Program-made: the position numbers and the translations under genes
Shown here: one piece after another, positions 1,838 through 35,584 of the stretch
How positions within the stretch are numbered: position 1 is the stretch's first letter
Layout: each line of letters begins with the position of its first letter
Notes under the pieces: model-generated
What the model was told of the DNA's origin: nothing
What the model saw: only the letters and a program-made list of their open reading frames with translations
Database searches by the model: none
Source: Nitrospirota bacterium
GTDB lineage: Bacteria > Nitrospirota > Thermodesulfovibrionia > Thermodesulfovibrionales > SM23-35
Assembly: GCA_016212245.1 (NCBI GenBank)
Contig: JACRGU010000127.1
Coordinates: 1 to 35,584, forward strand
Length of the DNA stretch: 35,584 nt
Direction of reading: 5' to 3'

Positions 1838-2035
1838 ATGCCAAAATTGAAAACACATAGAGGTGCTGCCAAGAGATTTAAGATTACGGCTAATGGCAAG
1901 ATTAAGAGGAGAAAGGGATACAAAAGCCATCTTCTTACAGGAAAATCTGCAAAAAGGACAAGAGGTCTCAGGGCAGCTACTCTGGTTTCAGATAGCGAAT
2001 ATGTTAATATTAAAAGACTTTTACCATATAAGTAG
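1838..2035 (+). CDS. rpmI: 50S ribosomal protein L35
   Basis: [26 protein letters not shown]... is a typical L35. An SD (GGGGGA) lies upstream, and the gene sits between infC and rplT. Confidence 0.95.
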
Positions 2036-2040
2036 AAAAC

Positions 2041-2117
2041 AGTGAATAGTGAACAGTATTTAGTGAATAGTAAAAATGTCTCTAACTATCAACTGTTCAC
2101 TGACGACTATTCACTAT
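2041..2117. repeat. Inverted pair of period-7 repeat arrays (AGTGAAT/AGTGAAC ... GTTCACT/ATTCACT) between rpmI and rplT
   Basis: agtgaatagtgaacagt at 2041-2057 is the imperfect reverse complement of actgttcactgacgactattcact at 2091-2114. The 7-nt periodicity is visible by eye. Confidence 0.8.
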
Positions 2118-2134
2118 ATAAGTAGGAGGGATGG

Positions 2135-2497
2135 ATGCCGAGGGTAAAAGGTGGATTTAAAACAAGGAGAAGAAGGAAGAAGATATTAGAGAGGGCAAAG
2201 GGCTACTACGGAGCTAAAAGTCGTCTTTACAGGGTTGCTACAGAAGCTGTTGATAAGGCACTGCAATATGCATACAGGGACCGTAAGGTAAAGAAGCGTG
2301 AATTCCGATCGCTCTGGATTATCAGGATAAATGCTGCCGCACGTGCACTCGGACTGAGTTACAGCCAGTTTATGTCCAGACTGAAAAAGGCAAATATTAC
2401 ATTAAACAGGAAGGCACTTGCGGATATGGCTTACAATGACCCATTTGCTTTCAGTCAACTTGTAGAGACTGTAAAGACAGTGACAAGTGACGAGTGA
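2135..2497 (+). CDS. rplT: 50S ribosomal protein L20
   Basis: [18 protein letters not shown]...GYYG is a typical L20, with SD AGGAGGG upstream. The last ~7 codons (KTVTSDE) lie inside a repeat that recurs at 30867. Confidence 0.95.
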
Positions 2498-2518
2498 CAA
2501 GTTGACACAGTTTCTTGA

Positions 2519-2574
2519 GTTTATTGAGTCTCTTGGGTTTTAATAACTCAATGAACTGTGTAAACTCAATAAAC
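2519..2574. repeat. 56-bp palindromic-ended element (11-bp terminal inverted repeats gtttattgagt/actcaataaac), copy 1
   Basis: The 51-nt stretch 2524-2574 is 50/51 identical to the reverse complement of 30922-30972. Confidence 0.85.
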
Positions 2575-2611
2575 CCCGTAACCCTAACGGAACTCGTTAG
2601 TCGTTATTGTT

Positions 2612-3691: not shown

Positions 3692-5776
3692 ATGCGTGTA
3701 CCATTTGAATGGTTAAGGGAATTTGTTGATATCTCAGCTTCTCCTGAAGAGGTAGCAGAAAGACTTACCATGGTCGGATTTGAGGTTGAGGCAATGGAGT
3801 CTGTAAAAGACGATACTGTTTTTGAGGTTAATGTTACGCCGAACAGGCCTGACTGTCTCAGTATACTCGGTATTGCGAGAGAGGTATCTGTAGCCTTTAG
3901 GGTTCCTCTGAAAATACATGTATGCGAGATTAAAGGGGAGCTGCCTCTTTCTGATTTTTCTGTTGAGATTTTTAACCACGAGCTCTGCAGTAGATATGCA
4001 GGCAGGGTAATAAAAGATGTGAGGATTTCTGATTCTCCTGAATGGATTAAGACACGGCTCGAGAAGTGCGGCATAAGGGCTATAAATAGTGTTGTTGATA
4101 TTACAAACTATGTTCTTTTAGAGTTTGGGCATCCACTCCATGCATTTGATGCTGATACAATCAATGGTAAAAAAATAAAGGTTGGCATGCCAGATACTGT
4201 ACTCCTCCAAACTCCAAACTCCAAACTCCAAACTAAAATTAAGACACTCGATGGTGTTGAGCGTGAAATATTAGGAGACTCTCTTCTGATATGGGATGCT
4301 GAAAATCCCATAGCCGTTGCTGGAGTTATGGGTGGGCTGGAAACAGAAGTCAATGACTCCACAGCGAATGTATTTCTTGAAAGTGCATATTTTGAGCCTT
4401 TTTCGATCAGGAGGACATCAAAGAGGCTGAATCTCATAAGCGAGTCTTCCTACAGGTTTGAAAGGGGGGCTGATATAGAGTTTCTTGAGAAGGCCCTCAA
4501 CAGGGCAGCCCTCATGATAAGGGAAATTGCTGGAGGAACTATATATGAAATAATAGATGTGTATCCAGTGAGATATGTGCCTGAACCTATAAAGATAAGA
4601 TACGATAGGATTAATAGAATCTTAGGGACAGAGATCTCGAATGCTGATATGCTCAAGATCCTGAAGAAGCTGGGCATTACCACAGAGGATAAGGGAGATT
4701 TTTTTATTGTATATCCCTCTGCATACAGGCGTGACATTAAGAGAGATAGTGATGTAGCTGAAGAGATAGCGAGGTCTTACGGCTATGATAGAATTCCATC
4801 GAGGATTCCGAGGAGCCCTCTTTCTTCAGGAAAGCTGGATAAAAAGATGATGAATATCATTCGGATAAGGGAAGCTATGAGAAAATCAGGATTCACAGAG
4901 GTTATTAATTACAGTTTTATGAGTCCATCGAGTCTCGATGTGATTGCCGTCCCTCAGGCTGACAGGAGGCGGAATGTTATTGTCATAAATAATCCTTTAA
5001 GACAGGATGAATCCCTGCTGAGGACAACACTGATTCCAGCCTTGATTGGAAACTTTAAATATAACCTGGATAGGGGGATAAGAGATATAAGGTTCTTCGA
5101 GATATCGAGTGTCTTTGAGGATATTGGGAGGCCCCTTCCATTAGAAGAGTTAAGGCTTGGAGGTATATTCTACAGGGATAAGACCCCTTCTCTATGGAAG
5201 GAGGATGTAGAGGGATTCTTTATCACAAAGGGTGCTATCGAATCCATGTTTGAAGAGTTAAAGATAAATGAATATTCATTCTCCTCATCTTCAGAGCTAT
5301 TTCTACATAAAGGCCAGGCATCTGATATATATGTTAGAGGCGCTTATGCGGGATACCTCGGGGTCCTCGGACCAGAAATAGTAGAAAGGCTTGATTTAAA
5401 GAAACAGAGACCGGAGATTGTTGTATTCGAACTTAACCTCGATCTGCTTTTGACACTCATACCTGATTCGATAAAATATAACGAGATACCGAGGTATCCC
5501 TATGTGGAGCGTGATATTGCCATTATTGTTGATGAAAGCCTCTCTGCTTCTGAGATTAAAGAGATCATCAGAACTTTCCCCTCAGAACTCATAGAAGAGG
5601 TTTCAGTCTTCGATTCCTACAGGGGAAGCAATATCCCTGAAGGGAAGAAAAGCCTCGCATTCAATATCAGGTACAGGGCGAAGGACAGGACACTGACCGA
5701 CGATGAGGTTGAAGAGCTTCATGCCTCACTTGTGGAGCATATACTTGAGAAGACAGGTGGGGAACTGAGAAGGTAA
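3692..5776 (+). CDS. pheT: Phenylalanine--tRNA ligase beta subunit, short form (694 aa) lacking the N-terminal OB-fold tRNA-binding (B2) domain
   Basis: The N-terminus MRVPFEWLREFV... passes directly into ...VNVTPNRPDCLSILGIAREV. The B3/4, B5 and FDX-ACB-like C-terminal regions are recognisable. Four tandem TCCAAAC heptamers lie in frame at 4206-4233. Confidence 0.93.
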   Translation: MRVPFEWLREFVDISASPEEVAERLTMVGFEVEAMESVKDDTVFEVNVTPNRPDCLSILGIAREVSVAFRVPLKIHVCEIKGELPLSDFSVEIFNHELCSRYAGRVIKDVRISDSPEWIKTRLEKCGIRAINSVVDITNYVLLEFGHPLHAFDADTINGKKIKVGMPDTVLLQTPNSKLQTKIKTLDGVEREILGDSLLIWDAENPIAVAGVMGGLETEVNDSTANVFLESAYFEPFSIRRTSKRLNLISESSYRFERGADIEFLEKALNRAALMIREIAGGTIYEIIDVYPVRYVPEPIKIRYDRINRILGTEISNADMLKILKKLGITTEDKGDFFIVYPSAYRRDIKRDSDVAEEIARSYGYDRIPSRIPRSPLSSGKLDKKMMNIIRIREAMRKSGFTEVINYSFMSPSSLDVIAVPQADRRRNVIVINNPLRQDESLLRTTLIPALIGNFKYNLDRGIRDIRFFEISSVFEDIGRPLPLEELRLGGIFYRDKTPSLWKEDVEGFFITKGAIESMFEELKINEYSFSSSSELFLHKGQASDIYVRGAYAGYLGVLGPEIVERLDLKKQRPEIVVFELNLDLLLTLIPDSIKYNEIPRYPYVERDIAIIVDESLSASEIKEIIRTFPSELIEEVSVFDSYRGSNIPEGKKSLAFNIRYRAKDRTLTDDEVEELHASLVEHILEKTGGELRR

Positions 5777-5853: not shown

Positions 5854-6879
5854 ATGAATAGAGCTATAAAATTTTTCTCTGTATGTTTTTTACTTATTAT
5901 CCTGCCAATCTTAGGATGTACCTATCTTAAGACCTCAAGACCTATCCTTCCTATAAAAGAATACGAAAAGATGATTGTGGGGAGATTTGACGCTGAGTAT
6001 GTTGGCACTGACAGGTGTCTTTCAGCCTGTCATGCCCATGATAGGATAAGGGCATCTTTTGATGTAAGCACAATGGGGGTTCAGCTCTCGAGAGAGTCAG
6101 GCCTTCCGCTTGTAAACTGCGAATCCTGCCATGGCCCTGGAAGCTTAGCAATAAAGGATATAACCTTAGAAAGGGTAAGGGCTGATGAGGAGAAAGGAAT
6201 AAAGACGACATGCGACTACAAGACCCTTATTGATATCAAAAACCTGCCTGCCCCTGCCCAATCACTTATCTGTCTGAAATGCCATACAGGTAATGCAACC
6301 TTTAATCTTCATAACTGGAATGCAGGTATCCATGCTATAAATGATGTCTCATGTCTCGATTGTCATGATATCTGTAAAACCTTTAAAGCTGGTAGTCCTG
6401 ACCTGAAGGTGAGGCCGAGGGATACGGCTGAGATGTGCTATAAATGCCATACCCATGCGAGGGCTGAATTTATGCTTCCGAGCCATCATCCTGTTCCTGA
6501 GAGAAAGGTCTTCTGCACAAGCTGTCATGACCCCCATGATGGTGGTAGTGAAAAACCATTCAGGAGGTCAACTATCAAGGATACATGCACATACTGCCAT
6601 GTAGAAAAGGCAGGGCCATTCGTCTTTGAACATGGCGGTTTAACAGATGACTGTATGGCATGCCACAGCAGCCATGGTTCTCCTAATAATAACCTTCTTA
6701 ATGTCAGGATGCCATTTCTATGTCTCCAGTGTCACGAGGGTCATGTTGTCAGCAGGGATGGGACTCCAACTATAGCGGAATCAAAGAGGGCCTTTTACAC
6801 AAGATGTACAGACTGTCATCCAACAATTCATGGAACAGATATTCCATCAGCAGGTGGAAGAGGAAGTTTTACACAATGA
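5854..6879 (+). CDS. Decahaem c-type cytochrome, lipoprotein signal (MtrA/DmsE/PioA-like)
   Basis: It has nine CxxCH motifs plus one CxxxCH (CLSACH) in 341 aa. The lipobox is LPILG-C. GPFVFEHGG...CMACHSSHGS and the C-terminal CTDCHPTIHGTD are typical of periplasmic multihaem wires. Confidence 0.85.
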   Translation: MNRAIKFFSVCFLLIILPILGCTYLKTSRPILPIKEYEKMIVGRFDAEYVGTDRCLSACHAHDRIRASFDVSTMGVQLSRESGLPLVNCESCHGPGSLAIKDITLERVRADEEKGIKTTCDYKTLIDIKNLPAPAQSLICLKCHTGNATFNLHNWNAGIHAINDVSCLDCHDICKTFKAGSPDLKVRPRDTAEMCYKCHTHARAEFMLPSHHPVPERKVFCTSCHDPHDGGSEKPFRRSTIKDTCTYCHVEKAGPFVFEHGGLTDDCMACHSSHGSPNNNLLNVRMPFLCLQCHEGHVVSRDGTPTIAESKRAFYTRCTDCHPTIHGTDIPSAGGRGSFTQ

Positions 6880-6924
6880 ACCCATCATGCCAACAAGTCT
6901 ATACGTACGAAAGGGAATAAAAAT

Positions 6925-7063
6925 GTCATTCCCGCGCAGGCGGGAATCCAGACGTCGTCCCCCGTATCAAGTACGGGGCAGGCTCTGCGAAACTTGTCCC
7001 TGCGGAAGCAGGGAGCAGGGAACTATACAAAAGGAATTGGATTCCTGTTTTCACAGGAATAAC
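6925..7063. repeat. Composite MITE/REP-like element built from four short hairpins, copy A
   Basis: The four hairpins are attcccgc-gcag-gcgggaat, ccccgta-tcaag-tacgggg, tccctgc-ggaa-gcaggga and attcctgt-tttc-acaggaat. It shares modules and a 37-nt identical block (ctatacaaaaggaattggattcctgttttcacaggaa) with 10125-10243. Confidence 0.8.
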
Positions 7064-7129
7064 AGATTAGGAGTATTTCCAGGTGAAATATATTAAAAAA
7101 GTAGCAGTGCAGCAGAGCAACAATACGGT

Positions 7130-7918
7130 ATGTTTCTTTTTCTACTGTATCCTCTTACTGTTTACTGTTCACTGTTTCCTGCCTATGCTGAAGAGCCAGA
7201 CGAAGAGTATGAGGTAGAAGAAGAGATTACGCTCGAATATGTTTATGAGGAAGAGGTCCCGAAGATTAAACCCCAATTTAAAGTCAAATTAGGCTATGGG
7301 ATTGTGGATGAAAGTGGTTCTGGAAGGGCTGGCGAATTCGATTATCTCCATTCCTCTCTCACAGGTGGCCTCAAGCTTACAGCGTACCCTCTTCCACACA
7401 GGATCGAGCTTGAGTATGAAGGTCTGAATATAAAGGACTTTTATTCTGAGATAGCTTATGCATACAAAGACATATTCCTTTCGAGGCTTATATCCACAGG
7501 ACTCTATCATAACCTCGACCATTACTATTACCCGACCCCGTATGGTGTAAATTTAGAGTCCCCACCACGTGTCCTGATGTATAACGACAGAGACTCTGAG
7601 GACAAATATGGTGTAAGGGTGGATATGCATTATCTATTCTTGAGATTCAAGATACCTGACTTCCCCCTGCATCTGTATTTAGATGGGAAGCTTTATGAGA
7701 AGGAAGGGACAAAACAGCAGAGGTTTCTCAGCGGTTATCATGGAAACATAGAGATGGTCTCAAGGACAAGAAGTATAGATTTTAGAACAGAAGAGGTTAC
7801 TATAGGTACTAATAGCCACCTCGGACCAATAGAGATTGACCTCAGCCATTATGAAAGAAACTTTAATGTTAAAGGTGATAGGGTCCTCTATGACAACTTT
7901 CCTGCTACTGCGGGGTAG
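7130..7918 (+). CDS. Outer-membrane beta-barrel protein, N-terminal part (MtrB/PioB-like); probably one gene with 7836..9095
   Basis: The signal peptide is MFLFLLYPLTVYCSLFPAYA-EE, followed by alternating amphipathic strands. The ORF ends at TAG 7916 just after a GGGG run, and the barrel-like sequence continues in the next frame. Confidence 0.7.
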   Translation: MFLFLLYPLTVYCSLFPAYAEEPDEEYEVEEEITLEYVYEEEVPKIKPQFKVKLGYGIVDESGSGRAGEFDYLHSSLTGGLKLTAYPLPHRIELEYEGLNIKDFYSEIAYAYKDIFLSRLISTGLYHNLDHYYYPTPYGVNLESPPRVLMYNDRDSEDKYGVRVDMHYLFLRFKIPDFPLHLYLDGKLYEKEGTKQQRFLSGYHGNIEMVSRTRSIDFRTEEVTIGTNSHLGPIEIDLSHYERNFNVKGDRVLYDNFPATAG

Positions 7919-9095
7919 GGCTGCAGATATATACCCGCACAATCTTATACCAGAGATAAGGGAATCGTCTAACACTATTAAGATTCATACATCATATACA
8001 GGACAGATAGTTGCTTCTGCAACACTTAATAGGGGTGAGAGAAGGAATAAGGACAGCAGAGCTGAGGTTGATTATCTAAATGGTGTAGGAGAGCTTACAT
8101 GGATGCCTCAACACAATATTGCGGTATTTCTTAAATACAGGCATTTTGACCATGATGTAGATAATCCGGATACGGTTTCGATCACGGGAACGGGGTTAGG
8201 TAATACATATACATATGCAGTCAGACCATCTCTATCTACAGAAAGGGATGTGATTTCTACTGCCTTGAGGTATCGGCCAGTGAATAACCTTACCTTGCGG
8301 GCTGAATATTCATGGGAGGAGATTGACAGGAAGAATAGTGATAAATGGAACCTTCCAGGTAAGACAAATAAGAACACATTCACCCTTTCTGCAACAACAA
8401 GACCTCTTAAAAGATTGAATCTGAAGGCGTTCTATACACATAAGGAGATTGACAATCCAGCATACAACTATGAGCCAGATATCTCTAACCAGGCGAAGCT
8501 GACCGCCACATGGAATACCACTCCTGAACTTACATTCTTTGGGACTTACAGCCTTACAAGAGACAGGAGAGGTGATCTCGGCAATCAACTCTCTGAGGGT
8601 GAAAGAAGTGCAGATAGGGATATGATAATGGGAAATATGACATATATGATTTTGAAAGACCTGTCCTTTACAGCAGGCTATGCATATTTTAGAAATGAGG
8701 TAAAGCAGGATATAAAATATAGGCAACTTGTGGGTGGGGCACTTGGTACCGCCCTCAATGACAGGGGAGTCCCTTACAAAGATACTATAGATAATTTTTA
8801 CATCGCTCTCAGTTATATAAAAAATAGATTCAATCTGAACGGGCATGTTAGCTATACCATTTCAGAGGGTAAATTCAGTCCTAACATCACTGAAGCCCTT
8901 CAACCTGCCTCTATAGCATTATTCTCTAAATTAAAGGTCTATGAAACCGAGACTTCTATATGGGGAGAGTATGAGGTTACAAAGGGTTGGTGGGTTGGAT
9001 TGAGATATGAATATAATAATTTCGATGATAAGATTGACAGCAGCTATGATAGTAGAGTCCATATGACCTTTTTAACTATCTCGAAGAGGTGGTGA
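7836..9095 (+). CDS. Outer-membrane beta-barrel protein, C-terminal part (MtrB/PioB-like); real coding probably starts near 7917 as a continuation of 7130..7918
   Basis: Tyr/Arg/Asn-rich strand-turn pattern (YSLTRDRRGD, FTAGYAYFRNEV) is visible. The C-terminal aromatic residue (...TFLTISKRW) is typical of BAM-dependent OMPs. It lies directly downstream of a decahaem cytochrome. Confidence 0.7.
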   Translation: MTSAIMKETLMLKVIGSSMTTFLLLRGRAADIYPHNLIPEIRESSNTIKIHTSYTGQIVASATLNRGERRNKDSRAEVDYLNGVGELTWMPQHNIAVFLKYRHFDHDVDNPDTVSITGTGLGNTYTYAVRPSLSTERDVISTALRYRPVNNLTLRAEYSWEEIDRKNSDKWNLPGKTNKNTFTLSATTRPLKRLNLKAFYTHKEIDNPAYNYEPDISNQAKLTATWNTTPELTFFGTYSLTRDRRGDLGNQLSEGERSADRDMIMGNMTYMILKDLSFTAGYAYFRNEVKQDIKYRQLVGGALGTALNDRGVPYKDTIDNFYIALSYIKNRFNLNGHVSYTISEGKFSPNITEALQPASIALFSKLKVYETETSIWGEYEVTKGWWVGLRYEYNNFDDKIDSSYDSRVHMTFLTISKRW

Positions 9096-9180
9096 TGGAC
9101 AAAAAAAGTTCAAAGTTGAAAGTTCAAAGTTTAAAGTTAAAAGTTATTTTTTATTTTTTACTTCTCACTTCTCACTTGTA
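9096..9180. repeat. Period-7 repeat array pair (AGTTCAA/AGTTGAA/AGTTTAA/AGTTAAA ... TTCTCAC x2)
   Basis: The sequence is gttcaaagttgaaagttcaaagtttaaagttaaaagtt, then a T-rich loop, then ttacttctcacttctcactt. The two halves are imperfect reverse complements. Confidence 0.85.
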
Positions 9181-9215
9181 ATGTATTTGCTGCTGAGAAG
9201 GCCATCGGCATAATC

Positions 9216-10052
9216 ATGACAGGCAATATCCCCTACTACAATGAGATGCATCATGCCTTCGTCTCAAAACTTCAGAGAGAGGGATATGCCGATAACGTGA
9301 AGATAATAATCCAGAAGCCTTATCCTGACCCTATTTCATGGAGCAATGCTGTAAGAAAACTTGTGGCAGCAGATGTTGATCTCATCGTGACATACGGGGC
9401 ACCTGCAACACTGTCAGCCGTCAGGGAAAGGATAAAAATCCCAATTGTCTATTCAGGTGTTTATGAACCGATTGCTAAGGGCATAAAATCTAAAAATGTA
9501 ACAGGCATCAGTTTCAGGGTACCTGTTTCGAGTCTCATCCGTTATCTCAGAGGTGTAACGACTGTTTCGAGCCTTGGGGTTATTTATAATGAGGCTGAGG
9601 AAGACTCGGTTCATCAATTAATGGAATTGATGAGACTTTCAGAACAGTATGGGTTTGAGGTCGAAAAGATAAGACTGAAAAGGCCTGAGGATGCTAACAG
9701 GATGCTCTCTTATAAAAAGACTGATGCTATCTTTATTACCAGTAGCTCCTTAGTGAATATGGCGGCTGATAGTATTATTAATATTGCAAAGGCCAATAGA
9801 GTTCCTACAGTCTCATTGCTTTCAGGCACGACAGGATCGGAAGCAATTATCACCCTTTCTGTAAAGCCTGGTGAACAGGGTGAAAAAGCCGCAGAAAAGG
9901 TCATTAAGATACTTAATGGGATACCGGCCGAAAGGATTCAGGCAGAATCATCGAGGGGTACAGAGCTTATCTTTAACATGAAAGAGGCTAATGCTATGGG
10001 GCTCAGGTTGTCAATGGACCTTATAACAGAGGCTACGAGGATAATAAAGTGA
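9216..10052 (+). CDS. Periplasmic substrate-binding-protein-like protein (ABC_sub_bind type); start uncertain
   Basis: The type I PBP-like pattern (GIIMTGNIPYY..., VDLIVTYGAPAT, TDAIFITSS) is present. The frame is open back to 9141 and encodes a signal-peptide-like KLFFIFYFSLLTCNVFA-AEK. No ATG, GTG or TTG is available there. Confidence 0.7.
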   Translation: MTGNIPYYNEMHHAFVSKLQREGYADNVKIIIQKPYPDPISWSNAVRKLVAADVDLIVTYGAPATLSAVRERIKIPIVYSGVYEPIAKGIKSKNVTGISFRVPVSSLIRYLRGVTTVSSLGVIYNEAEEDSVHQLMELMRLSEQYGFEVEKIRLKRPEDANRMLSYKKTDAIFITSSSLVNMAADSIINIAKANRVPTVSLLSGTTGSEAIITLSVKPGEQGEKAAEKVIKILNGIPAERIQAESSRGTELIFNMKEANAMGLRLSMDLITEATRIIK

Positions 10053-10090
10053 TTAAAAATAAATTCAAAATTCAAACCCTTATGCCATAA

Positions 10091-11128
10091 GTGGTACAAA
10101 AGAATATGAAAATGCTGCCAGATTGTCATTCCTGCGGAAGCAGGAATCCAGACGCCGTCTCTGCGAAAGCAGGGAGCTATACAAAAGGAATTGGATTCCT
10201 GTTTTCACAGGAAACTCTGGATTCCCGTTTTCACGGGAATGACATTTTCGGAGCAAAACTCAAAATTATAGGACTCGTGTTCTTTATCTTAATCCTCATT
10301 TCCCCTTTATACGCATTCTCTGAACAGAAGGAGTTACTTATAGGGCTTATCCCTGAAGAGAATATCTTCAAGCAGATGGATCGCTACAGGCCCTTAGCTG
10401 CATATCTCTCTGAGAAACTCGGTATTAAGGTAAGGTTAACCATTCTCAGCAAGTATGGAGATGTTATTGATAGATTTGCCTCTAGAAGGATGGATGGCGC
10501 CTTTTTTGAGGCGTTCACAGCAAACCTTGCTATGGTAAAACTTAATGTTGAACCCATAGCAAGGCCGATGAACCTTGATGGGACATCAACTATTAAAGGT
10601 TACATATTTGTTAGAAAAGACAGTGGAATAAAGTCTATAAAGGATATGAAGGATAAAATTGTAGTATTTGTTGATAAGGCAACAGCAACAGGTTATGTAT
10701 TTACTATTGCCTTCTTCAGGGAAAATGGTGTTAGAGATATAGACAGCTATTTCAGCGAATACTATTTTACAGGAAGCCATGATTCAGCAGTGTATGCTGT
10801 TTTAGATAACAGGGCAGATATAGGCAGTGCAGGAAGCAGGTTTTATCAGAGGATAATAGATAAGGACCCGGCGATTAAGAATGAACTGCAGATTTTAGCG
10901 ACATCTCAGGAAGTTCCTGATATTACCCTCTGTATAAGGCGTGATCTTCCTCCTGAGCTGAAACTCAGGATAAAAGAGGTGCTCTTAAATATGGATAAAG
11001 ACCCTACAGGGAAAGAGGTCTTGAAGAAGTTTGGGGCATTGAGGTTTATCAGTGCTGGTAAGGCTGATTTCAAGCCTGTCTTTGATTTAGCAAAAAAGGC
11101 AGGGATAGACATTATAGAGATTAGATAA
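10091..11128 (+). CDS. PhnD-like (phosphonate-binding fold) periplasmic binding protein; true start probably well downstream of 10091
   Basis: LLIGLIPEENIFKQMDRYRPLAAYLSEKLGIKV...GYVF...DIGS is the PhnD-family pattern. The signal peptide KLKIIGLVFFILILISPLYA-FSEQ begins about 10256. Codons 10106-10243 are repeat-derived. Confidence 0.75.
   Translation: MVQKNMKMLPDCHSCGSRNPDAVSAKAGSYTKGIGFLFSQETLDSRFHGNDIFGAKLKIIGLVFFILILISPLYAFSEQKELLIGLIPEENIFKQMDRYRPLAAYLSEKLGIKVRLTILSKYGDVIDRFASRRMDGAFFEAFTANLAMVKLNVEPIARPMNLDGTSTIKGYIFVRKDSGIKSIKDMKDKIVVFVDKATATGYVFTIAFFRENGVRDIDSYFSEYYFTGSHDSAVYAVLDNRADIGSAGSRFYQRIIDKDPAIKNELQILATSQEVPDITLCIRRDLPPELKLRIKEVLLNMDKDPTGKEVLKKFGALRFISAGKADFKPVFDLAKKAGIDIIEIR
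10125..10243. repeat. Composite MITE/REP-like element, copy B, bounded by 27-nt inverted repeats
   Basis: gtcattcctgcggaagcaggaatccag at 10125-10151 faces ctggattcccgttttcacgggaatgac at 10217-10243. Its translation gives the ...DSRFHGND... type peptide typical of spurious ORFs over this repeat family. Confidence 0.8.
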
Positions 11129-13235: not shown

Positions 13236-13277
13236 GTTAATTCTTACTTCTCACTTTACATTTTATAAAAATAAAAG

Positions 13278-14252: not shown

Positions 14253-14983
14253 GATTCCTCCTTTATTTCACCAATTAATTTATAGTCCTCATCGCTGAGT
14301 CTAATTTTTTCAAGAAGCTCAGGTCTTCTTTGTAGTGTACGGCGCAGGGCCTCTTTTCGTCTCCATCGCCAGATATCTCTATGGTTTCCAGAAAGTAAAA
14401 TCTTTGGCACTGCCATATCCCTAAACACAGAAGGTCTTGTATAATGAGGGTAGTCAAGTATCCCCCACGAAAACGATTCTGTCTCAGCAGAACGCTCATC
14501 GCCGAGCACTCCGGGTATTAATCTGGCAACAGCGTCTATTATAACTAAAGCAGGTAGTTCTCCGCCAGTCAGTATGTAATCACCTATGGATATCTCATCA
14601 TTAACAAGGGCTGTTCTTACCCTCTCGTCTATTGCCTCATATCTTCCGCATAAGAATATAAGCTCTCTGTGTTCATTAGAGAGTTCTACTGCAATATCCT
14701 GATTGAATTTTTTGCCCTGAGGGCTGAGCATGATAACCCTTCTTTTTGTGCTGTCAGGACATAGTGCCTCTACAGCAGCAAAAAATGGTTCAGGCTTCAT
14801 AACCATGCCTGCACCACCCCCATAAGGGTAATCATCAACAGTTCTGTGTTTATCTGTGGTGAAGTCTCTCAGGTTATAAATCTTCATGTCTATGAGCCGC
14901 TTCTGTATTGCCCTCTTTAAGATACCCTCACTAAGATAGGCATAAAAGATTTCGGGGAAGAGTGTAATAACATCACACTTCAT
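14249..14983 (-). CDS. trmD: tRNA (guanine37-N1)-methyltransferase
   Basis: [13 protein letters not shown]...[11 protein letters not shown]...[10 protein letters not shown] are TrmD motifs. I prefer the ATG at 14983, which forms an ATGA overlap with the ruvC stop, over the upstream Met at 15010. Confidence 0.92.
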
Positions 14984-15540
14984 CTTGACTGCCTTGTATT
15001 CATGTGACATAAGGCGAGGGCAAGGGCATCTGCACTGTCCTCGGTGAGATTTGGCCCCGAATCAAGTTCAGGATGACCCCGTAACTTCACAAAGTTACGG
15101 GGATGAGATTTAAGATTTAAGATTCTCATCACCATCTCCCGAACCTGCCTCTTTTCAGCCCTTCCATAACCGGTAATAGCCTTTTTAACCTCAAGGGCAC
15201 TGTACTCGTAAATATTAAGACCCTCAGATGCAGCGCAGAGAAGGGCTATACCCCTCACCTGCCCAAGGTTTAATGCTGCTTTTACACCCTTTGCAAAAAA
15301 TATACGTTCAATTACCATTTCGTGGGGATTATATTCCCTGATTATACTGATAAGTGCATCATAGAGCTCTTTTAATCGTAGATGCAGCGGACTTTCTGGT
15401 GATAAGGCTATCCTCCCGGAGGCAATGTAGATACAGTCAGCAGTTTTTTGACTCTTGATTCTCGACTGTTGACTATTGACTGTCTCTATCAGTCCGTAAC
15501 CACAGATAATGCTTCCAGGGTCAATACCGAGGATCTTCAC
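14980..15540 (-). CDS. ruvC: Crossover junction endodeoxyribonuclease RuvC, with two in-frame repeat insertions
   Basis: [10 protein letters not shown]...GYG, ...VIERIFF..., ...[13 protein letters not shown]... and [12 protein letters not shown] are RuvC motifs. The extra segments [12 protein letters not shown] and [21 protein letters not shown] coincide with repeat DNA. Confidence 0.88.
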
Positions 15541-19354: not shown

Positions 19355-19436
19355 GTAAATCAAAAATTAGAAATCAAAAAGCAAAATTACAATTCAAAAT
19401 TCAAAAATAAAATTCCTTAATTTTTATTTTTAATCT

Positions 19437-24992: not shown

Positions 24993-25150
24993 ACTCCAAG
25001 CCAGATTATAAACCACAGAGATACCGAAGGTCGAATCGAAAAGGGTGCAGAGCGGTGAGGGTGAGATAAATAGAACAGTTGTTCTATTTTAAGCATCAAA
25101 ATAAATTGTTTACAAAAATGCACTATTTGTTTCCAAATATAATTTTTTTG

Positions 25151-25178
25151 TTGACAAATAAAATTTATCTGTTATATT
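25151..25178 (+). promoter_or_regulatory. Sigma70-like promoter (TTGACA-16 nt-TATATT) in an AT-rich spacer
   Basis: TTGACA lies at 25151-25156 and TATATT at 25173-25178. The SD AGGTGA and the ATG at 25196 follow. Confidence 0.55.
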
Positions 25179-25195
25179 AATATATAGGTGAATAA

Positions 25196-25741
25196 ATGCT
25201 GAAAAGTTTATTCTCATCTTCAATAAGGGCAGATGTCCTGGCACTCCTTCTAAATAGCCCGGACGAGCAGTTCTATATCAGGGAGATAGCAAAGCTTCTC
25301 AGAAAAAATCCATCAGGTGTGAAGAGGGAACTCGACAACCTTGAGAAGATGGGTGTAGTAATTAGTGAAAAGGTTGCCAACCTAAAATATTTCCGGGCAG
25401 ACAAAGACTCGCCCCTGTACTCCGAGTTAAAAAATCTTATAGCTAAGTCTCTCGGGTTGCCTGGGGCGATAAAGGCAGTCTTGAGGGCTTCAGGTGCAAA
25501 AGCTGCTTTCATATACGGTCCTTATGCAGAAGGAGAAGATGTTGACACAGTTAACCTTTTTGTAATAGGGGCGTCATTAGCCCTAACTAAAGGTCTAAAA
25601 GATATTGAGAAAAAATTCGGCCAGAGGGTCGAATCTATAGTGATAGAAGAGGCTGAGTATAGGCTTAAGAGAAAAAAGAAAGATGCAAATCTGAAAAGAC
25701 TTCTGTCAGGAAAGAAGATTACCCTGATAGGTAGGCTTTAG
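25196..25741 (+). CDS. Winged-helix (ArsR-like) DNA-binding protein with degenerate nucleotidyltransferase-like C-terminal domain
   Basis: The N-terminal wHTH is SIRADVLALLLNSPDEQFYIREIAKLLRKNPSGVKRELDNLEKMGVV. The C-terminal AAFIYGPYAEGEDVDTVNLFVIG resembles the minimal NTase fold but lacks the GS/DxD residues. Confidence 0.6.
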   Translation: MLKSLFSSSIRADVLALLLNSPDEQFYIREIAKLLRKNPSGVKRELDNLEKMGVVISEKVANLKYFRADKDSPLYSELKNLIAKSLGLPGAIKAVLRASGAKAAFIYGPYAEGEDVDTVNLFVIGASLALTKGLKDIEKKFGQRVESIVIEEAEYRLKRKKKDANLKRLLSGKKITLIGRL

Positions 25742-30650: not shown

Positions 30651-30702
30651 GTGGGGTTACAAATTTTAATTTTAGCTGGTAATATAATTTAGTAAGTCAT
30701 AA

Positions 30703-30769
30703 GTCAAAAAAGTATTTTTATCTAATGACTATTGACTAATGACTGCTGACTTTATGACTGCCGAAGGCA
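30703..30769. repeat. About 60-nt repeat (gtcaaaa..gtattttt..atgactaatgactgctgactttatgactgccgaaggca), copy 1, abutting tRNA-Ser(GCU)
   Basis: It is near-identical to 32451-32506, and copy 1 carries one extra heptamer unit. Confidence 0.85.
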
Positions 30770-30772
30770 AAA

Positions 30773-30865
30773 GGAGAGGTGGCCGAGATGGTCGAAGGCA
30801 GCCGCCTGCTAAGCGGTTGTGGGGGTAAAATCTCACCCAGGGTTCGAATCCCTGCCTCTCCGCCA
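30773..30865 (+). tRNA. tRNA-Ser (anticodon GCU), CCA encoded
   Basis: The cloverleaf folds by hand: acceptor ggagagg/cctctcc, anticodon loop ct-GCT-aa, long variable arm, T arm cagggttcgaatccctg, discriminator G. Confidence 0.92.
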
Positions 30866-30921
30866 TTAAAGACAGTGACAAGTAACAAGTGATGAGTGAC
30901 AAGTTTCGTTAGGTTTACTAA

Positions 30922-30978
30922 GTTTATTGAGTTTACACGGTTCATTGAGTTATTAAAACCCAAGAGACTCAAAAAACG
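30922..30978. repeat. Palindromic-ended element, copy 2, interior inverted relative to copy 1
   Basis: 30922-30972 is the reverse complement (50/51) of 2524-2574, while the upstream 17-mer taaagacagtgacaagt (30867-30883 vs 2472-2488) is in direct orientation. Confidence 0.85.
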
Positions 30979-31029
30979 GTGTCAACTCGTTACTTGTAAC
31001 TTGTTACTAAAAATTAAGGAGGTTGAACC

Positions 31030-31697: not shown

Positions 31698-31784
31698 AGT
31701 TGTTAGTACTTGAATTTTTTTGTTTACTATTCACTAATCACTAATCACTTTTCACTATCTACCGTCGTTAAATAGGATTCAATA

Positions 31785-32243: not shown

Positions 32244-32309
32244 AGTTTTAATTTCTTTTCTTGTTGTAAACTAAAAACTGTTCACTATTCACTGATAACT
32301 GTATTTATT

Positions 32310-32399: not shown

Positions 32400-32450
32400 T
32401 TGAGAAGTTAGAAGTTAAAAATGAAAAGTTAAAAGTTTAAATTAAAAGTG

Positions 32451-32506
32451 GTCAAAAGTATTTTTCTGATGACTAATGACTGCTGACTTTATGACTGCCG
32501 AAGGCA
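32451..32506. repeat. About 60-nt repeat, copy 2, abutting the 3' end of the minus-strand tRNA
   Basis: See 30703-30769. The block ctaatgactgctgactttatgactgccgaaggca is identical in both copies. Confidence 0.85.
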
Positions 32507-32508
32507 GG

Positions 32509-34619: not shown

Positions 34620-34693
34620 AACAATTAAAAATTACTAATAAGTTCATAAGTAAGATGTCATCCCGTCATCTCTTTTTACTCTTAACTTTTAAC

Positions 34694-35584
34694 CTATTTC
34701 ATCACATTTTCCATAACTGAAATATTATATCTCATCATTTCTATGTACGTCTCTCTACCTTTCTGTCCGCCGATAGGGTCGAGGTATAAGACCTTTGCGC
34801 TGCTTTCCCTTGCTACAGCCTCAGCAATCTTAGGATTAAATTGAGGCTCGGCAAAGATAACCCTGTTTCCGATGCGATTGACTTCTTGAATAATCCTTGC
34901 AATATGTTTCGGACTCGGCTCTTTGCCTGGTGCTTCCTCAATAACACCAGCAACCTTGAGTCCGTATCTCTTTGAAAAATAATTCCATGCTGAATGAAAT
35001 GTAACATATTCTTTTATTGTAAAAGTCTTAACTTTTTCGGAGATCTCCTTATCGAGGTGTAGAAGCTTTTCTCTATATATAGATGCATTTTTTTTATAAA
35101 CCCCGGCATTGCTTGGGTCAGCCTCGATAAGTGTCTTTTCTATCTTTGTAACTATATCCCTTGCAATCAGAGGGTCAAGCCAAATGTGAGGATCGGCATA
35201 TGAGTCAAGTGATGAGTGTTGAGTGATGAGTGTTGAGTGATGAGAATGAACATCTCTTATCAATTGTATCCCAAATGATGAATCAACAACGATGAGCCTT
35301 TTACTTCCTGATGCCTTTATCATCTTTTCTGCCCAGAATTCAAGCCCAGCACCTATCTTAACGAATACCCTCGCCTCAGATAATTCTTTCATAACCTTAG
35401 GCGTTGGTTCATATGTATGCGGGCTTGCACCAGGAGGCAGGAGCAATTTTACATCAACACGCTCTTCTCCCACCTGTCTTACAAAGTCATATAAGGGGTA
35501 AATACTGACGATTACCTTCAGTTTCTGCCCTCCATAGAGTGAAGTAAAAAGTAAAAAGTGAAAGATGAAAAGTAAGATTATTGA
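34694..35584 (-). CDS. znuA: Metal (Zn/Mn) ABC transporter substrate-binding protein, TroA/ZnuA family; start codon lies beyond the window end
   Basis: The frame stays open upstream of the GTG at 35473 to the window edge (SIILLFIFHFLLFTSLYGGQKLKVIVSIYPLYDFVRQVGEERV...). That stretch is a signal peptide plus the conserved N-terminal strand. The PPGASPHTYEP and DPHIWLDP metal-ligand motifs are present, with a His-containing loop between them. Confidence 0.85.
   Translation of the reverse strand, partial: SIILLFIFHFLLFTSLYGGQKLKVIVSIYPLYDFVRQVGEERVDVKLLLPPGASPHTYEPTPKVMKELSEARVFVKIGAGLEFWAEKMIKASGSKRLIVVDSSFGIQLIRDVHSHHSTLITQHSSLDSYADPHIWLDPLIARDIVTKIEKTLIEADPSNAGVYKKNASIYREKLLHLDKEISEKVKTFTIKEYVTFHSAWNYFSKRYGLKVAGVIEEAPGKEPSPKHIARIIQEVNRIGNRVIFAEPQFNPKIAEAVARESSAKVLYLDPIGGQKGRETYIEMMRYNISVMENVMK

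What the first reader, a model, noticed from the sequence alone, without database searches (positions are those of the whole stretch)
9096..9180. Pervasive period-7 repeat arrays fill almost every intergenic spacer
Arrays of degenerate heptamers occupy at least these intervals: 2041-2117, 2476-2511, 9096-9180, 10050-10080, 13236-13262, 19364-19436, 30690-30770, 30866-30905, 30985-31010, 31715-31765, 32265-32305, 32400-32506, 34640-34693 and 35535-35584. The heptamer families seen are AGTGAAY, AGTTNAA, GTGACAA, ATGACTN and TCAAAAN.

They often occur as two arrays in inverted orientation around an AT-rich loop, for example 2041-2057 against 2091-2114. Such pairs could form long imperfect hairpins.

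This density and strict 7-nt phase are unusual for bacterial intergenic DNA, and I cannot assign them to a named repeat class.
Basis: seen in the sequence. Interest (0 to 1): 0.65.

Follow-up and report, generated by a model that had tools for sequence, protein, structure and literature searches.

The report
Heptamer (AGTNNNN) repeat arrays in spacers
About half of the gene-to-gene spacers of this uncultivated groundwater bacterium hold tandem 7-base repeats built on a shared AGT core, the same kind of repeat long known (function still unknown) in cyanobacteria and giant sulfur bacteria, here in a different, probably Nitrospirota-like lineage.

Summary
The period-7 arrays are real. All 14 listed intervals show lag-7 self-identity above every other lag and above shuffles. 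Intergenic lag-7 identity is 0.346 against 0.276 in shuffles (z 8.3), and coding DNA shows none. "Almost every spacer" is overstated: 11 of 26 spacers of at least 30 nt carry a significant array.

The five "families" are one degenerate family, AGT[T/G]A[A/T]N (ACT on the other strand). AGT/ACT is by far the most 7-phased trinucleotide.

The same arrays occur in 68 related metagenome loci, often at orthologous tRNA-flanking spacers, with exact 7-nt indels between close relatives. They are essentially absent from 80 loci of unrelated bacteria. Identical array types sit in over 100 other contigs of the source metagenome.

Arrays also occur as in-frame insertions in pheT (10 aa), ruvC (11 aa) and a znuA loop.

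Pairs always run AGT array, loop, ACT array. Five of about eight pairs fold significantly better than shuffles. Two composite hairpin elements are duplicated within the window.

This is a known kind: heptanucleotide long SSRs, cyanobacterial STRRs and the TAACTGA repeats of Beggiatoaceae. It is a new member in a probably Nitrospirota-like lineage.

Two things remain unexplained: the AGT core, and the strong conservation of some tRNA-flanking arrays.

The parts
2041..2119 (+). Inverted heptamer pair filling the rpmI-rplT spacer: AGT units x5 (2041-2075), a 9-nt loop region, then ACT units x5 (2085-2119).
   Evidence: RNA fold of 2030-2125 gives -24.9 kcal/mol, z -3.4, 0 of 200 shuffles as good. 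rpmI lies at 1838-2035.
2472..2611 (+). Composite hairpin element of about 140 nt, copy 1, in the rplT-pheS spacer and overlapping the rplT stop. It has an AGTGACA-type heptamer arm (2479-2506), an AGT-phased 9-mer core (2509-2581) and an ACT/AGT-CGTT arm (2593-2611).
   Evidence: D12, I1. Fold z -5.9.
4205..4234 (+). Perfect (CTCCAAA)x4.3, equal to ACTCCAA units, 30 nt, inside pheT. It encodes an extra LQTPNSKLQT in the B3/4 domain.
   Evidence: TRF gives 100% matches. There is a 10-residue gap in the PDB homologue 2rhs_B exactly here. Word depth is 2856 against 8 in the flanks in run X1.
7155..7181 (+). ACTGTTT/ACTGTTC x3-4 at the 5' end of ORF 7130-7918.
9105..9180 (+).
   Evidence: lag-7 identity 0.73. 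It is not a significant hairpin (z -0.8). The array matches more than 150 other contigs in X1.
10053..10080 (+). Weak AAATTCA x2.3 array, one substitution away from AAAGTTC.
   Evidence: p = 0.033.
13236..13262 (+). Short ACTTCTC-type array (2-3 units) between two minus-strand genes.
   Evidence: D3; lag-7 identity 0.70, p = 0.0005.
15448..15485 (-). AGTCAAN-type units x5 inside ruvC, encoding an extra loop [13 protein letters not shown].
   Evidence: There is an 11-residue gap in both RuvC structures 6lw3_A and 1hjr_A exactly here.
19363..19436 (+). Degenerate AAAATTC array, about 8 units, without an AGT core.
   Evidence: TRF gives 69% matches; lag-7 identity 0.64.
30689..30772 (+). Hairpin element with AGTCA / TGACT heptamer arms plus a GCCGAAGGC mini-hairpin, abutting the 5' end of tRNA-Ser(GCT). 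This is copy 1.
   Evidence: Fold z -4.3. 30733-30779 is 94% identical to 32470-32516 (D5).
30867..31012 (-). Composite hairpin element of about 140 nt, copy 2, inverted relative to copy 1. It lies between tRNA-Ser(GCT) and the lipoprotein gene: AGT units x5 (30874-30908), the 9-mer core, then ACT units x4 (30985-31012).
   Evidence: (I1, 88% complementary over 84 nt). Fold z -6.7.
31726..31760 (+). Solitary ACTAATC/ACTATTC x5 array, 25 nt upstream of tadA.
   Evidence: No significant fold.
32260..32304 (+). ACT array x5 abutting the 5' end of tRNA-Ser(CGA), conserved across relatives.
   Evidence: It is 44/46 identical to L116, 40/49 to L125, 38/45 to L138 and 37/42 to L134, against about 73% for neighbouring tadA DNA.
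32405..32506 (+). AAGTTAA x6.6 array right after tRNA-Ser(CGA), then copy 2 of the AGTCA/TGACT hairpin element ending at the 3' end of tRNA-Sec.
   Evidence: Fold z -2.4.
34640..34693 (-). Weak AGT-then-ACT pair between two minus-strand ABC transporter genes.
   Evidence: lag-7 identity 0.47, p = 0.005. No significant fold.
35208..35244 (-). (AGTGATG AGTGTTG) x2.6 inside znuA, encoding HSHHSTLITQHSS in the variable metal-binding loop.
   Evidence: TRF period 14 gives 100% matches.
35542..35575 (+). AAGTAAA x4.9 array upstream of znuA. It is ACT-sense with respect to that minus-strand gene.

Best explanation
The window comes from an uncultivated, probably Nitrospirota-like groundwater bacterium. 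Its non-coding DNA is colonised by one family of degenerate heptanucleotide tandem repeats with unit AGT[T/G]A[A/T]N (ACT... on the other strand). They are the same kind of element as heptanucleotide long SSRs, cyanobacterial STRRs and the TAACTGA repeats of Beggiatoaceae.

Shown here:
- Arrays grow and shrink by whole 7-nt units, the signature of slipped-strand mispairing.
- They occur at many loci in this lineage and in the source community.
- They are about 10-fold concentrated outside ORFs.
- Where they sit in genes, they are in-frame, stop-free insertions in loops.
- Pairs always run AGT array, loop, ACT array, and several form stable imperfect hairpins.
- Two composite hairpin units have been duplicated within this genome.

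Inferred:
- Arrays are tolerated, and some are maintained, in transcribed spacers with a fixed polarity. The stop-rich, purine-rich AGT strand follows the upstream gene or tRNA. The open, pyrimidine-rich ACT strand lies in front of the next gene.
- There they act at the RNA level like REP/STRR elements, as intercistronic or tRNA-flanking hairpins or single-stranded heptad tracts. They would affect processing, stability or translation. They would not act as classical terminators or phase-variation switches.
- The kept AGT core implies either recognition by some factor or a sequence-specific bias in how arrays are generated. Which of these applies is not known.
For: Statistics.

AGT/ACT core:
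- 35 in-phase triples at spacing 7, against 0-4 at spacings 4-12.
- 10 of 12 agnostically detected arrays in the window and 22 of 40 in relatives have AGT in the consensus, against about 0.2 by chance and 5 of 18 in unrelated bacteria.
- AGT columns are the best conserved within arrays: 0.76-0.82 against 0.58-0.72.

Lineage-wide:
- 80 AGT triples at spacing 7 against 1-8 at other spacings in 502 kb of relatives. Unrelated bacteria give 11 against 2-7 in 1.4 Mb.

Slippage:
- Exact 7-nt indels separate L122 from L120/L123, and L089 from L087/L090.

Dispersal:
- Word depth at (CTCCAAA)n is 2856 against 8 in the flanks. More than 150 other X1 contigs carry (AAAGTTN)n with unrelated flanks.

In-frame insertions: ruvC 11 aa, pheT 10 aa, znuA loop.

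Hairpins: z -3.4, -4.3, -6.7, -5.9 and -2.4 in the window; L147 -5.0 and L087 -3.8.

Duplicated composite elements.

Maintenance:
- The array starts 8-9 nt after the tRNA-Ser(GCT) 3' end in 15 of 40 distinct trailers.
- The ACT array before tRNA-Ser(CGA) is 82-96% identical across relatives whose tadA DNA is about 73% identical.

Strand asymmetry: the AGT strand closes at least 2 frames with stops in 42 of 50 arrays, while the ACT strand closes only 0-1 in 28 of 50.

Literature:
- Heptanucleotides are the commonest long SSR. Close Cyanothece strains differ by 7-nt indels. TAACTGA repeats lie in ORF surface loops. The "forward" (ACT-strand) orientation lies upstream of start codons (PMC4679880).
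- STRRs are 7-bp units that can form hairpins between hupS and hupL, with unknown function (PMC2670836).
Against: - No transcript data exist for this organism; no RNA run holds the stretch. RNA-level action is therefore pure inference.
- Half of the arrays (the flagship 9098-9185, 34620-34693 and all solitary arrays) do not fold better than shuffles.
- In relatives the two arms differ freely in copy number, and the consensus stem shows no compensatory changes.
- The polarity rests on only 5 unambiguous independent sites. For pairs, the AGT-then-ACT order reads the same on both strands, so it says nothing about transcription.
- The perfect array inside the essential pheT gene looks like a mutational liability, not a function.
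- The taxon assignment rests on one marker: ArgH is 64-68% identical to Nitrospirae MAGs.
Confidence: 0.6

Rival explanations
1. The arrays are purely neutral or slightly deleterious by-products of replication slippage ("junk" long SSRs) with no cellular role. Their spacer location, polarity and stop-free in-ORF forms would reflect only purifying selection against harmful insertions.
For: - Unit-step indels between close relatives.
- A perfect, probably recent array inside the essential pheT gene and an insertion in ruvC.
- Many arrays have no predicted structure.
- Distant relatives L139-L144 do without arrays in 24-37-nt spacers.
- The polymerase-footprint slippage hypothesis for heptamers (Mrazek 2007, as cited in PMC4679880 and PMC4692102).
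Against: - Neutral slippage from random seeds does not predict one shared AGT core across arrays, or AGT columns better kept than the other four.
- The array boundary is fixed 8-9 nt after tRNA-Ser(GCT) in many lineages.
- The ACT array before tRNA-Ser(CGA) is more conserved than the neighbouring coding DNA.
Confidence: 0.25
2. The arrays are multimeric binding platforms for a single-strand nucleic-acid-binding protein with a 7-nt footprint or spacing. Candidates are a Csp or S1 OB-fold protein (as MacGregor proposed for TAACTGA) or a HutP/TRAP-like oligomer that reads a triplet every 7 nt. Together they would form a global post-transcriptional code.
For: - A conserved triplet plus a variable 4-nt spacer is the signature of triplet-reading oligomers. 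From my own knowledge, HutP reads UAG-N4 repeats and TRAP reads (G/U)AG-N2-3.
- The AGT core and its higher conservation.
- AGT also recurs at 9-nt spacing in the core of the 140-nt element.
- ACT-sense, pyrimidine-rich arrays end just before the Shine-Dalgarno sequence of five genes.
- B. subtilis CspB binds heptamer direct repeats, one protein per heptamer (cited in PMC4679880).
Against: - No candidate protein was identified, and none is encoded in the window.
- Arrays occur in both orientations and inside ORFs.
- Copy number varies freely.
- No binding data exist for any heptamer-repeat system.
Confidence: 0.12
3. The arrays are primarily arms or remnants of small non-autonomous mobile hairpin elements (MITE, REPIN or cyanobacterial SDR-like) that spread by transposition. 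Tandem heptamers would be their terminal inverted repeats or footprints.
For: - Two composite hairpin elements are present twice in the window. One pair is in opposite orientation with the arms preserved.
- Identical array types occur at more than 100 places in the metagenome.
- A second, unrelated nested-hairpin element (6920-7060 and 10124-10248) shows that such elements are active in this genome.
Against: - The composite elements are not found in any of the 68 related loci, so they look recent and local. The arrays themselves are lineage-wide and sit at orthologous sites.
- Most arrays are solitary, with no element body.
- No transposase or RAYT gene lies in the window.
- Unit-step indels are explained by slippage without any transposition.
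Confidence: 0.12
4. The inverted arrays are Rho-independent transcription terminators.
For: - They lie just after genes and tRNAs.
- In several relatives the hairpin is followed at some distance by a T-run before the next gene's Shine-Dalgarno sequence.
Against: - None is called by the terminator scan, and terminator-like sites are not above chance.
- The stems are A/U-rich.
- The T-run is in the loop (9144-9160) or about 17 nt from the stem.
- Two hairpins sit inside the infC-rpmI-rplT-pheST operon, where termination would be harmful.
Confidence: 0.05
5. The arrays are contingency loci: phase-variation switches, or assembly artefacts.
For: SSRs in promoters or ORFs cause phase variation in host-adapted pathogens (PMC4692102, PMC4679880).
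Against: - The arrays flank housekeeping genes and tRNAs, not surface genes.
- A one-unit change in the pheT or ruvC array would frameshift an essential or core gene.
- The arrays are reproduced in independent assemblies (X1, X2 and 68 JGI loci), so they are not artefacts.
Confidence: 0.02

Closest known systems
TAACTGA heptamer direct repeats of marine Beggiatoaceae, some cyanobacteria and Bacteroidetes (MacGregor 2015, PMC4679880)
   Same: - Intergenic tandem heptamers of 2-7 units, mixed with related heptamers.
- TAACTGA rotates to ACTGATA / AGTTATC, which fits the consensus AGT[T/G]A[A/T]N found here.
- The ACT-strand ("forward") orientation lies upstream of start codons.
- Indels come in 7-nt steps between close strains.
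- Occasional in-frame copies lie in surface loops of proteins.
- The phylogenetic distribution is patchy.
   Different: - There are no TAACTGA tandems here: one isolated copy on each strand.
- The units are highly degenerate rather than one exact heptamer.
- The arrays stop before an intact AGGAGG Shine-Dalgarno sequence instead of replacing it.
- Inverted AGT/ACT pairs forming hairpins are common here, whereas BOGUAY has one indirect repeat among 170 sets.
- The arrays flank tRNA genes.
- The phylum is different.
Cyanobacterial STRR (short tandemly repeated repetitive) sequences
   Same: - 7-bp tandem units of several sequence types.
- Intergenic and intercistronic location.
- Able to form hairpins, for example between hupS and hupL.
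- Function unknown, with transcript stability or translational coupling proposed (PMC2670836).
- From my memory (not verified here), the classical units CCCCAGT and CAACAGT also contain AGT.
   Different: - STRRs are defined in (mainly heterocystous) cyanobacteria. This organism has a sigma-54 activator, an MtrB/PioB-type porin and ArgH closest to Nitrospirae MAGs.
- The units here are A/T-rich, not the classical STRR units.
Heptanucleotide long simple sequence repeats (LSSR; Mrazek, Guo and Shah 2007, as summarised in PMC4679880 and PMC4692102)
   Same: - Tandem repeats of 5-11-nt units that are longer than chance.
- Heptamers predominate.
- They are enriched in intergenic DNA.
- Replication slippage is the proposed origin.
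- Inverted pairs have been noted in Xanthomonas (PMC4692102).
   Different: LSSR is a statistical class with no sequence constraint. Here one core (AGT) is shared by nearly all arrays, and some arrays are positionally conserved.
REP / BIME / REPIN elements of Proteobacteria (PMC3116915)
   Same: - Short dispersed intergenic sequences that pair in inverted orientation to form imperfect hairpins.
- Located between genes of operons.
- Duplicated within the genome.
   Different: - REPs are single palindromic units of about 20-40 nt, not tandem heptamers.
- REPINs are linked to RAYT transposases; none was seen here.
- REPs do not show unit-step length variation.

Membership tests
Heptanucleotide long SSR (LSSR) | Head-to-tail repeats of a 5-11-nt unit, longer than expected from composition | tested here: met
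   TRF finds period-7 arrays. Lag-7 z is 8.3 against shuffles. Per-interval p is at most 0.005 for 13 of 14 intervals.
Heptanucleotide long SSR (LSSR) | Length changes in whole units between related genomes (slippage) | tested here: met
   Exact 7-nt indels in alignments A2 and A3.
Heptanucleotide long SSR (LSSR) | Genome-wide excess, mainly intergenic | tested here: inconclusive
   Enrichment outside long open frames is about 10-fold in the window and in 502 kb of relatives. Many other metagenome contigs carry the same arrays. The rest of this genome could not be retrieved.
Cyanobacterial STRR | Tandem 7-bp units of several types in non-coding DNA, able to form hairpins | tested here: met
Cyanobacterial STRR | Host is a (filamentous) cyanobacterium; units are STRR1-3 | tested here: not met
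   The window has a sigma-54 activator and an MtrB/PioB porin. ArgH is nearest to Nitrospirae MAGs. The units are AGT[T/G]AAN.
TAACTGA direct repeats (MacGregor 2015) | Tandem copies of the exact heptamer TAACTGA | tested here: not met
   There is no tandem TAACTGA or TCAGTTA, only one isolated copy of each. Single ACTGATA units occur inside mixed arrays.
TAACTGA direct repeats (MacGregor 2015) | ACT-containing strand in sense orientation, directly upstream of start codons | tested here: inconclusive
   This holds at 2085, 9160, 30985, 31726, 34641-54 (minus sense) and 35543 (minus sense). However, the arrays end before an intact Shine-Dalgarno sequence, and only about 5 sites are independent and unambiguous.
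REP / REPIN / MITE | Multiple dispersed copies of one hairpin-forming element | tested here: inconclusive
   Two element types have 2 copies each in the window. None is found in 68 related loci. The whole genome is not available.
REP / REPIN / MITE | Associated RAYT or transposase, or target-site duplications | tested here: not met
   No transposase-like Pfam domain was found in any window ORF scanned. This covers the window only.
Rho-independent terminator | G+C-rich stem immediately followed by a T-run | tested here: not met
   No array is called, and terminator-like sites are at chance level. The stems are A/U-rich.
Phase-variation contingency locus | SSR in a promoter spacer or the 5' ORF of a variable surface gene, with unit changes switching expression | tested here: not met
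   The arrays flank translation genes, tRNAs and transporters. The in-ORF arrays lie in pheT, ruvC and znuA as in-frame loops.
Known structured RNA families (Rfam) | Match at gathering score | tested here: not met
   Only 3 tRNAs and tRNA-Sec were found in the window.

The most novel reading that the evidence does not exclude
AGU/ACU-phased heptads may be a cross-phylum cis-code (Nitrospirota-like bacteria, cyanobacteria, Beggiatoaceae, some Bacteroidetes). It would be read on single-stranded RNA or DNA by a protein with a 7-nt register, such as a Csp or S1 OB fold or a HutP/TRAP-like oligomer. On this reading the arrays are maintained regulatory or processing elements around tRNAs and at 5' UTRs, and slippage serves to tune the number of binding units. 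The shared ACT/AGT core of TAACTGA and of the family found here would then reflect a common reader, not horizontal transfer of the repeats.
Probability: 0.1. Interest if true: 0.8.

Novelty: new member of a known kind. Interest (0 to 1): 0.4.

Why it matters
Tandem heptamer repeats have been known in cyanobacteria since 1990, and as the commonest long SSR in bacteria since 2007. Neither their origin nor any function has been established.

This locus adds an independent, deep-branching lineage. Three features can be read more clearly here than in the described cases:
- Nearly all arrays share one conserved AGT core. The TAACTGA unit of Beggiatoaceae and cyanobacteria also fits that core.
- Rapid unit-step turnover coexists with long-term positional and sequence conservation next to tRNA genes.
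- The arrays have repeatedly invaded essential genes as in-frame loop insertions.

If the AGT core reflects a reader protein or a sequence-specific generation mechanism, the old question of what these repeats do would become testable.

In practical terms, the arrays break short-read assemblies: contigs end at them. They also inflate ORF calls.

Tried and rejected
- Exact look-up of the window's ArgH to fetch more of the same genome: not on record.
- RNA runs for the tRNA and array region: none available. Transcript ends could not be checked.
- A check for AGT-phased heptamers in a cyanobacterium, using the only accessible Nostoc DNA (plasmid pCC7120alpha, 1-50 kb): no heptamer arrays at all, so uninformative. 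This agrees with PMC4692102, which found none of its GGGGA(C/T)T repeats on that strain's plasmids.
- Literature search for the STRR unit sequences: only irrelevant hits. The STRR units are therefore quoted from memory and flagged as such.
- Terminator and promoter scans: arrays are not called, and counts are at chance level.
- Rfam scan: only tRNAs.
- Consensus folding of the orthologous tRNA-Ser trailers: a 10-pair A/U-rich stem with no compensatory changes.
- BLAST of the two composite hairpin elements against all 149 fetched loci: copies only in the window.
- Search of plasmids for the unrelated nested-hairpin element: no match.
- CRISPR was considered and rejected: the units are 7 nt with no spacers.
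- Polarity of AGT-then-ACT pairs relative to transcription was rejected as evidence. The arrangement is its own reverse complement, so it reads the same on both strands.
Full report
**Observation**

I read the flagship spacer and ran Tandem Repeats Finder on the whole window. Period-7 arrays are reported at or inside nearly all the listed intervals.

I printed the 14 intervals in rows of seven and tested each one.
- Lag-7 self-identity is 0.47-0.74.
- That is higher than any other lag from 4 to 12 in every interval.
- It is reached by at most 0.5% of shuffles in 13 of 14 intervals. The exception is 10050-10080, which is weak at p = 0.033.

Over all intergenic DNA, lag-7 identity is 0.346 against 0.276 +/- 0.008 in dinucleotide-preserving shuffles (z = 8.3). 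Harmonics appear at lags 14 and 21. Coding DNA shows nothing (0.253).

A strict array caller finds 7 arrays at lag 7 in the window and none at lags 5, 6 or 8-11. It finds only 3 lag-7 arrays in 1.4 Mb from 80 unrelated bacteria.

The signal is therefore real, specific to period 7 and not a composition effect. The wording "almost every intergenic spacer" is too strong. With rpmI and the tRNAs added to the gene map, 11 of 26 spacers of at least 30 nt hold a significant array and two more are borderline.

**One family, not five**

I asked which trinucleotide is most often found three times in a row at spacing 7. The answer is AGT/ACT, with 35 cases against 0-4 at spacings 4-12. The runner-up is AAA/TTT with 17.

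Nearly all the arrays can be written as (AGTNNNN)n or, on the other strand, (ACTNNNN)n. This covers AGTGAAT, AGTGACA, AGTTCAA, AGTTAAA, AGTGAGA, AGTGATG and AGTCATT.

Pooling 204 units from 50 distinct arrays in the window and its relatives gives AGT[T 41%/G 33%][A 69%][A 54%/T 25%]N.

With an array caller that knows nothing about AGT:
- 10 of 12 arrays in the window have AGT in their consensus.
- 22 of 40 arrays in relatives do.
- Chance expectation is about 0.2, and unrelated bacteria give 5 of 18.
- Within such arrays, the A, G and T columns agree with the consensus in 76-82% of units. The other four columns agree in 58-72%.

The A-rich arrays at 10061 and 19363 (AAAATTC) lack AGT. They are one substitution away from AAAGTTC.

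**Organism and context**

The window encodes:
- thrS-infC-rpmI-rplT-pheS-pheT
- a multihaem cytochrome with an MtrB/PioB-type porin
- ABC binding proteins and a histidine kinase
- an iron-dependent repressor, RNase HII, L19, TrmD and RuvC
- ArgH, PCMT and SurE
- PurM-like, M23 peptidase, bactofilin, LpxC, TldD/PmbA and a purine/uridine-type phosphorylase-family protein (Pfam PNP_UDP_1)
- a sigma-54 response regulator
- a small lipoprotein, TadA and a ZnuABC transporter

The window also holds tRNA-Ser(GCT), tRNA-Arg(ACG), tRNA-Ser(CGA) and tRNA-Sec.

In 185,579 species genomes, ArgH is nearest to "Bacterium BMS3Bbin05" (68%) and to Nitrospirae MAGs (67% and 64%). The DNA is found in groundwater metagenome runs: X1 holds 92% of the sampled words and X2 holds 55%.

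I therefore call it an uncultivated, probably Nitrospirota-like groundwater bacterium. This rests on one marker and is an inference. It is not a cyanobacterium.

**Not confined to the window**

The lipoprotein gene 31030-31587 retrieved 68 related metagenome loci with 34-73% protein identity.
- In their 502 kb there are 80 AGT/ACT triples at spacing 7, against 1-8 at other spacings.
- The 80 unrelated loci give 11 against 2-7.
- Density is highest in the window, about 1 per kb against 0.16 per kb.

Laying the metagenome contigs on two arrays showed the following.
- The array itself has a word depth of 2856 ((CTCCAAA)n) or about 4400 ((AAAGTTN)n). The flanks have 7-8.
- More than 150 other contigs in X1 carry the (AAAGTTN)n type with unrelated flanks. 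X2 has 99 and a hot-spring run has 20.
- Short-read contigs end at the arrays.

In both the window and the relatives, arrays are about 10-fold enriched outside long open frames.

**Evolution at orthologous sites**

The order tRNA-Ser(GCT), lipoprotein, tRNA-Arg, tadA, tRNA-Ser(CGA) is conserved in nearly all relatives. This gives orthologous spacers to compare.

Downstream of tRNA-Ser(GCT):
- 20 of 40 distinct trailers begin with an AGT array.
- In 15 of those the first AGT lies 8-9 nt after the tRNA 3' end.
- The 4-nt variable parts differ from lineage to lineage. An ACT arm may or may not follow.
- Close relatives differ by exact 7-nt indels. L122 lacks TATAACT relative to L120 and L123. L089 lacks one unit relative to L087 and L090. 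L117 has 3 units where L128 and L106 have 5.
- The most distant relatives (L139-L144) have 24-37-nt spacers with no array.

Upstream of tRNA-Ser(CGA), the ACT array is strikingly conserved. It is 44/46 identical between the window and L116, 40/49 with L125, 38/45 with L138 and 37/42 with L134. The adjacent tadA coding DNA is about 73% identical.

So the arrays turn over quickly by unit-step slippage. At least some have nevertheless persisted, in place and partly in sequence, over considerable divergence.

**Arrays inside genes**

Four arrays lie in or at the edge of ORFs.
- In ruvC, the AGTCAAN array coincides exactly with an 11-residue insertion relative to the Pseudomonas and E. coli RuvC structures.
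- In pheT, the perfect (CTCCAAA)4.3 array of 30 nt coincides with a 10-residue insertion in the B3/4 domain relative to Staphylococcus PheT. The X2 strain has a diverged version of similar length.
- In znuA, the array encodes HSHHSTLITQHSS in the variable loop.
- The fourth array, ACTGTTT x3-4 at 7155-7181, lies at the 5' end of ORF 7130-7918. I did not test it against homologues.

The three arrays tested against homologues are in-frame and stop-free. The AGT strand of arrays closes at least two reading frames with TGA or TAA in 42 of 50 cases. The ACT strand is largely open. This explains why two of these three in-ORF arrays (pheT, znuA) are ACT-sense.

MacGregor described the same behaviour for TAACTGA repeats, including a copy in a surface loop of an RpoC-like protein (PMC4679880).

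**Hairpins and composite elements**

Whenever two arrays share a spacer, the order is AGT array, loop, ACT array. This arrangement is its own reverse complement, so it says nothing about the direction of transcription.

Folded as RNA, five regions beat all or nearly all of 200 shuffles:

| Region | z-score |
|---|---|
| 2030-2125 | -3.4 |
| 30685-30772 | -4.3 |
| 30866-31015 | -6.7 |
| 2470-2612 | -5.9 |
| 32400-32508 | -2.4 |

The flagship 9098-9185 (z -0.8), 34620-34693 and every solitary array do not. Relatives give the same mixed picture: L147 -5.0 and L087 -3.8, with the others not significant. The conserved stem shows no compensatory changes.

Two composite hairpins are duplicated in the window.
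- A 140-nt element has AGTGACA-type heptamer arms and an AGT-phased 9-mer core. It lies at 2472-2611 and, inverted, at 30867-31012.
- An AGTCA/TGACT hairpin lies at 30689-30772 and 32446-32506.

Neither is found in the related loci, so these are recent, local duplications.

None of the hairpins looks like an intrinsic terminator. Two sit inside the infC-rpmI-rplT-pheST operon.

**Polarity**

Solitary arrays next to the 3' end of an upstream gene or tRNA are AGT-sense. Arrays in front of the next gene or tRNA are ACT-sense and stop just before an intact AGGAGG.

This holds at the five unambiguous independent sites. It matches the "forward" orientation of TAACTGA upstream of start codons in the Orange Guaymas "Maribeggiatoa" genome (PMC4679880).

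A simple filter could account for it. [quoted passage not shown] This is inference only.

**Comparison with what is known**

- According to the reviews in PMC4679880 and PMC4692102, Mrazek and colleagues found heptanucleotides to be the most abundant long SSR in many prokaryotes. They proposed a polymerase-footprint slippage origin.
- Cyanobacterial STRRs are 7-bp tandem repeats in intergenic DNA. They can form hairpins, and their function is still unknown (PMC2670836).
- TAACTGA repeats occur in Beggiatoaceae, cyanobacteria and a few Bacteroidetes (PMC4679880). TAACTGA rotates to ACTGATA / AGTTATC, which fits the consensus found here.

The present arrays meet the definition of heptanucleotide long SSRs and behave like STRR and TAACTGA repeats. 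They are not members of those two named families in the strict sense, because the host and the units differ and there are no TAACTGA tandems.

I found no report of such repeats in Nitrospirae in the searchable library, but that library is incomplete.

**Verdict**

This is a real and conspicuous feature of a known kind in a new lineage.
- Shown: unit-step slippage, lineage-wide and community-wide dispersal, non-coding enrichment, in-frame invasion of genes, hairpin-forming pairs, and duplicated composite elements.
- Inferred: an RNA-level REP/STRR-like role.
- Unexplained: the AGT core, and the conservation of the tRNA-flanking arrays.

The most novel reading not excluded is a heptad code read by a single-strand-binding protein. 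I give it about 10%.

Noticed in passing
window 6920-7060 and 10124-10248: A second, unrelated dispersed element built of nested hairpins (AAAATGTCATTCCCGCGCAGGCGGGAATCCAGA ... TCTGGATTCCCGTTTTCACGGGAATGACATTTT) is present in two copies. Its word depth in the source metagenome is 6000-8000 against about 8 for the genome, so it is extremely abundant in the community. Pieces of it occur in spacers of relatives L083, L091, L096, L111 and L132. It has no match in PLSDB plasmids. It makes ORF 6830-7096 and the first 55 or so codons of ORF 10091-11128 look spurious.
   Followed up: partly
window 1838-2035: rpmI (ribosomal protein L35, 65 aa) lies here and falls below the ORF-list cut-off. The gene order is thrS-infC-rpmI-rplT-pheS-pheT. 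Heptamer hairpins fill both the rpmI-rplT and rplT-pheS spacers.
   Followed up: yes
window 5854-9095: A multihaem c-type cytochrome (paired CXXCH motifs) is followed by an MtrB/PioB-like outer-membrane porin that is split over two overlapping frames (7130-7918 and 7836-9095). This is a possible frameshift, pseudogene or assembly error in an extracellular-electron-transfer module.
   Followed up: no
window 32509-32604 (-): A selenocysteine tRNA (Rfam tRNA-Sec, 55 bits; ARAGORN calls it Cys-GCA) is convergent with tRNA-Ser(CGA). The two are separated only by heptamer arrays.
   Followed up: partly
window 25124-25178: A 21-nt direct repeat (TATTTGTTGACAAATAAAATT, 2.4 copies) overlaps a near-consensus promoter-like site (TTGACA, 16 nt, TATATT with an upstream TG). 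It lies upstream of the unannotated gene 25196-25741 and looks like an operator/promoter arrangement.
   Followed up: no
window 2509-2581 and 30913-30951: Period-9 repeats (AGTTTCTTG, AGTTTATTG, GTTTACTAA) are also phased on AGT. They form the core of the 140-nt composite element. The AGT motif therefore recurs at a second spacing.
   Followed up: partly
L072 13206-13247; L066 7777-7804: Isolated ACT-phased heptamer arrays occur in unrelated bacteria fetched as controls: (ACTCTTA)x6 in a Prosthecobacter MAG and (ACTTAAC)x4 in a Desulfotignum MAG.
   Followed up: no
window 14980-15540 (-), residues 148-167 of RuvC: RuvC carries a second insertion ([19 protein letters not shown]) relative to the solved structures. 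It is not associated with a heptamer array.
   Followed up: no
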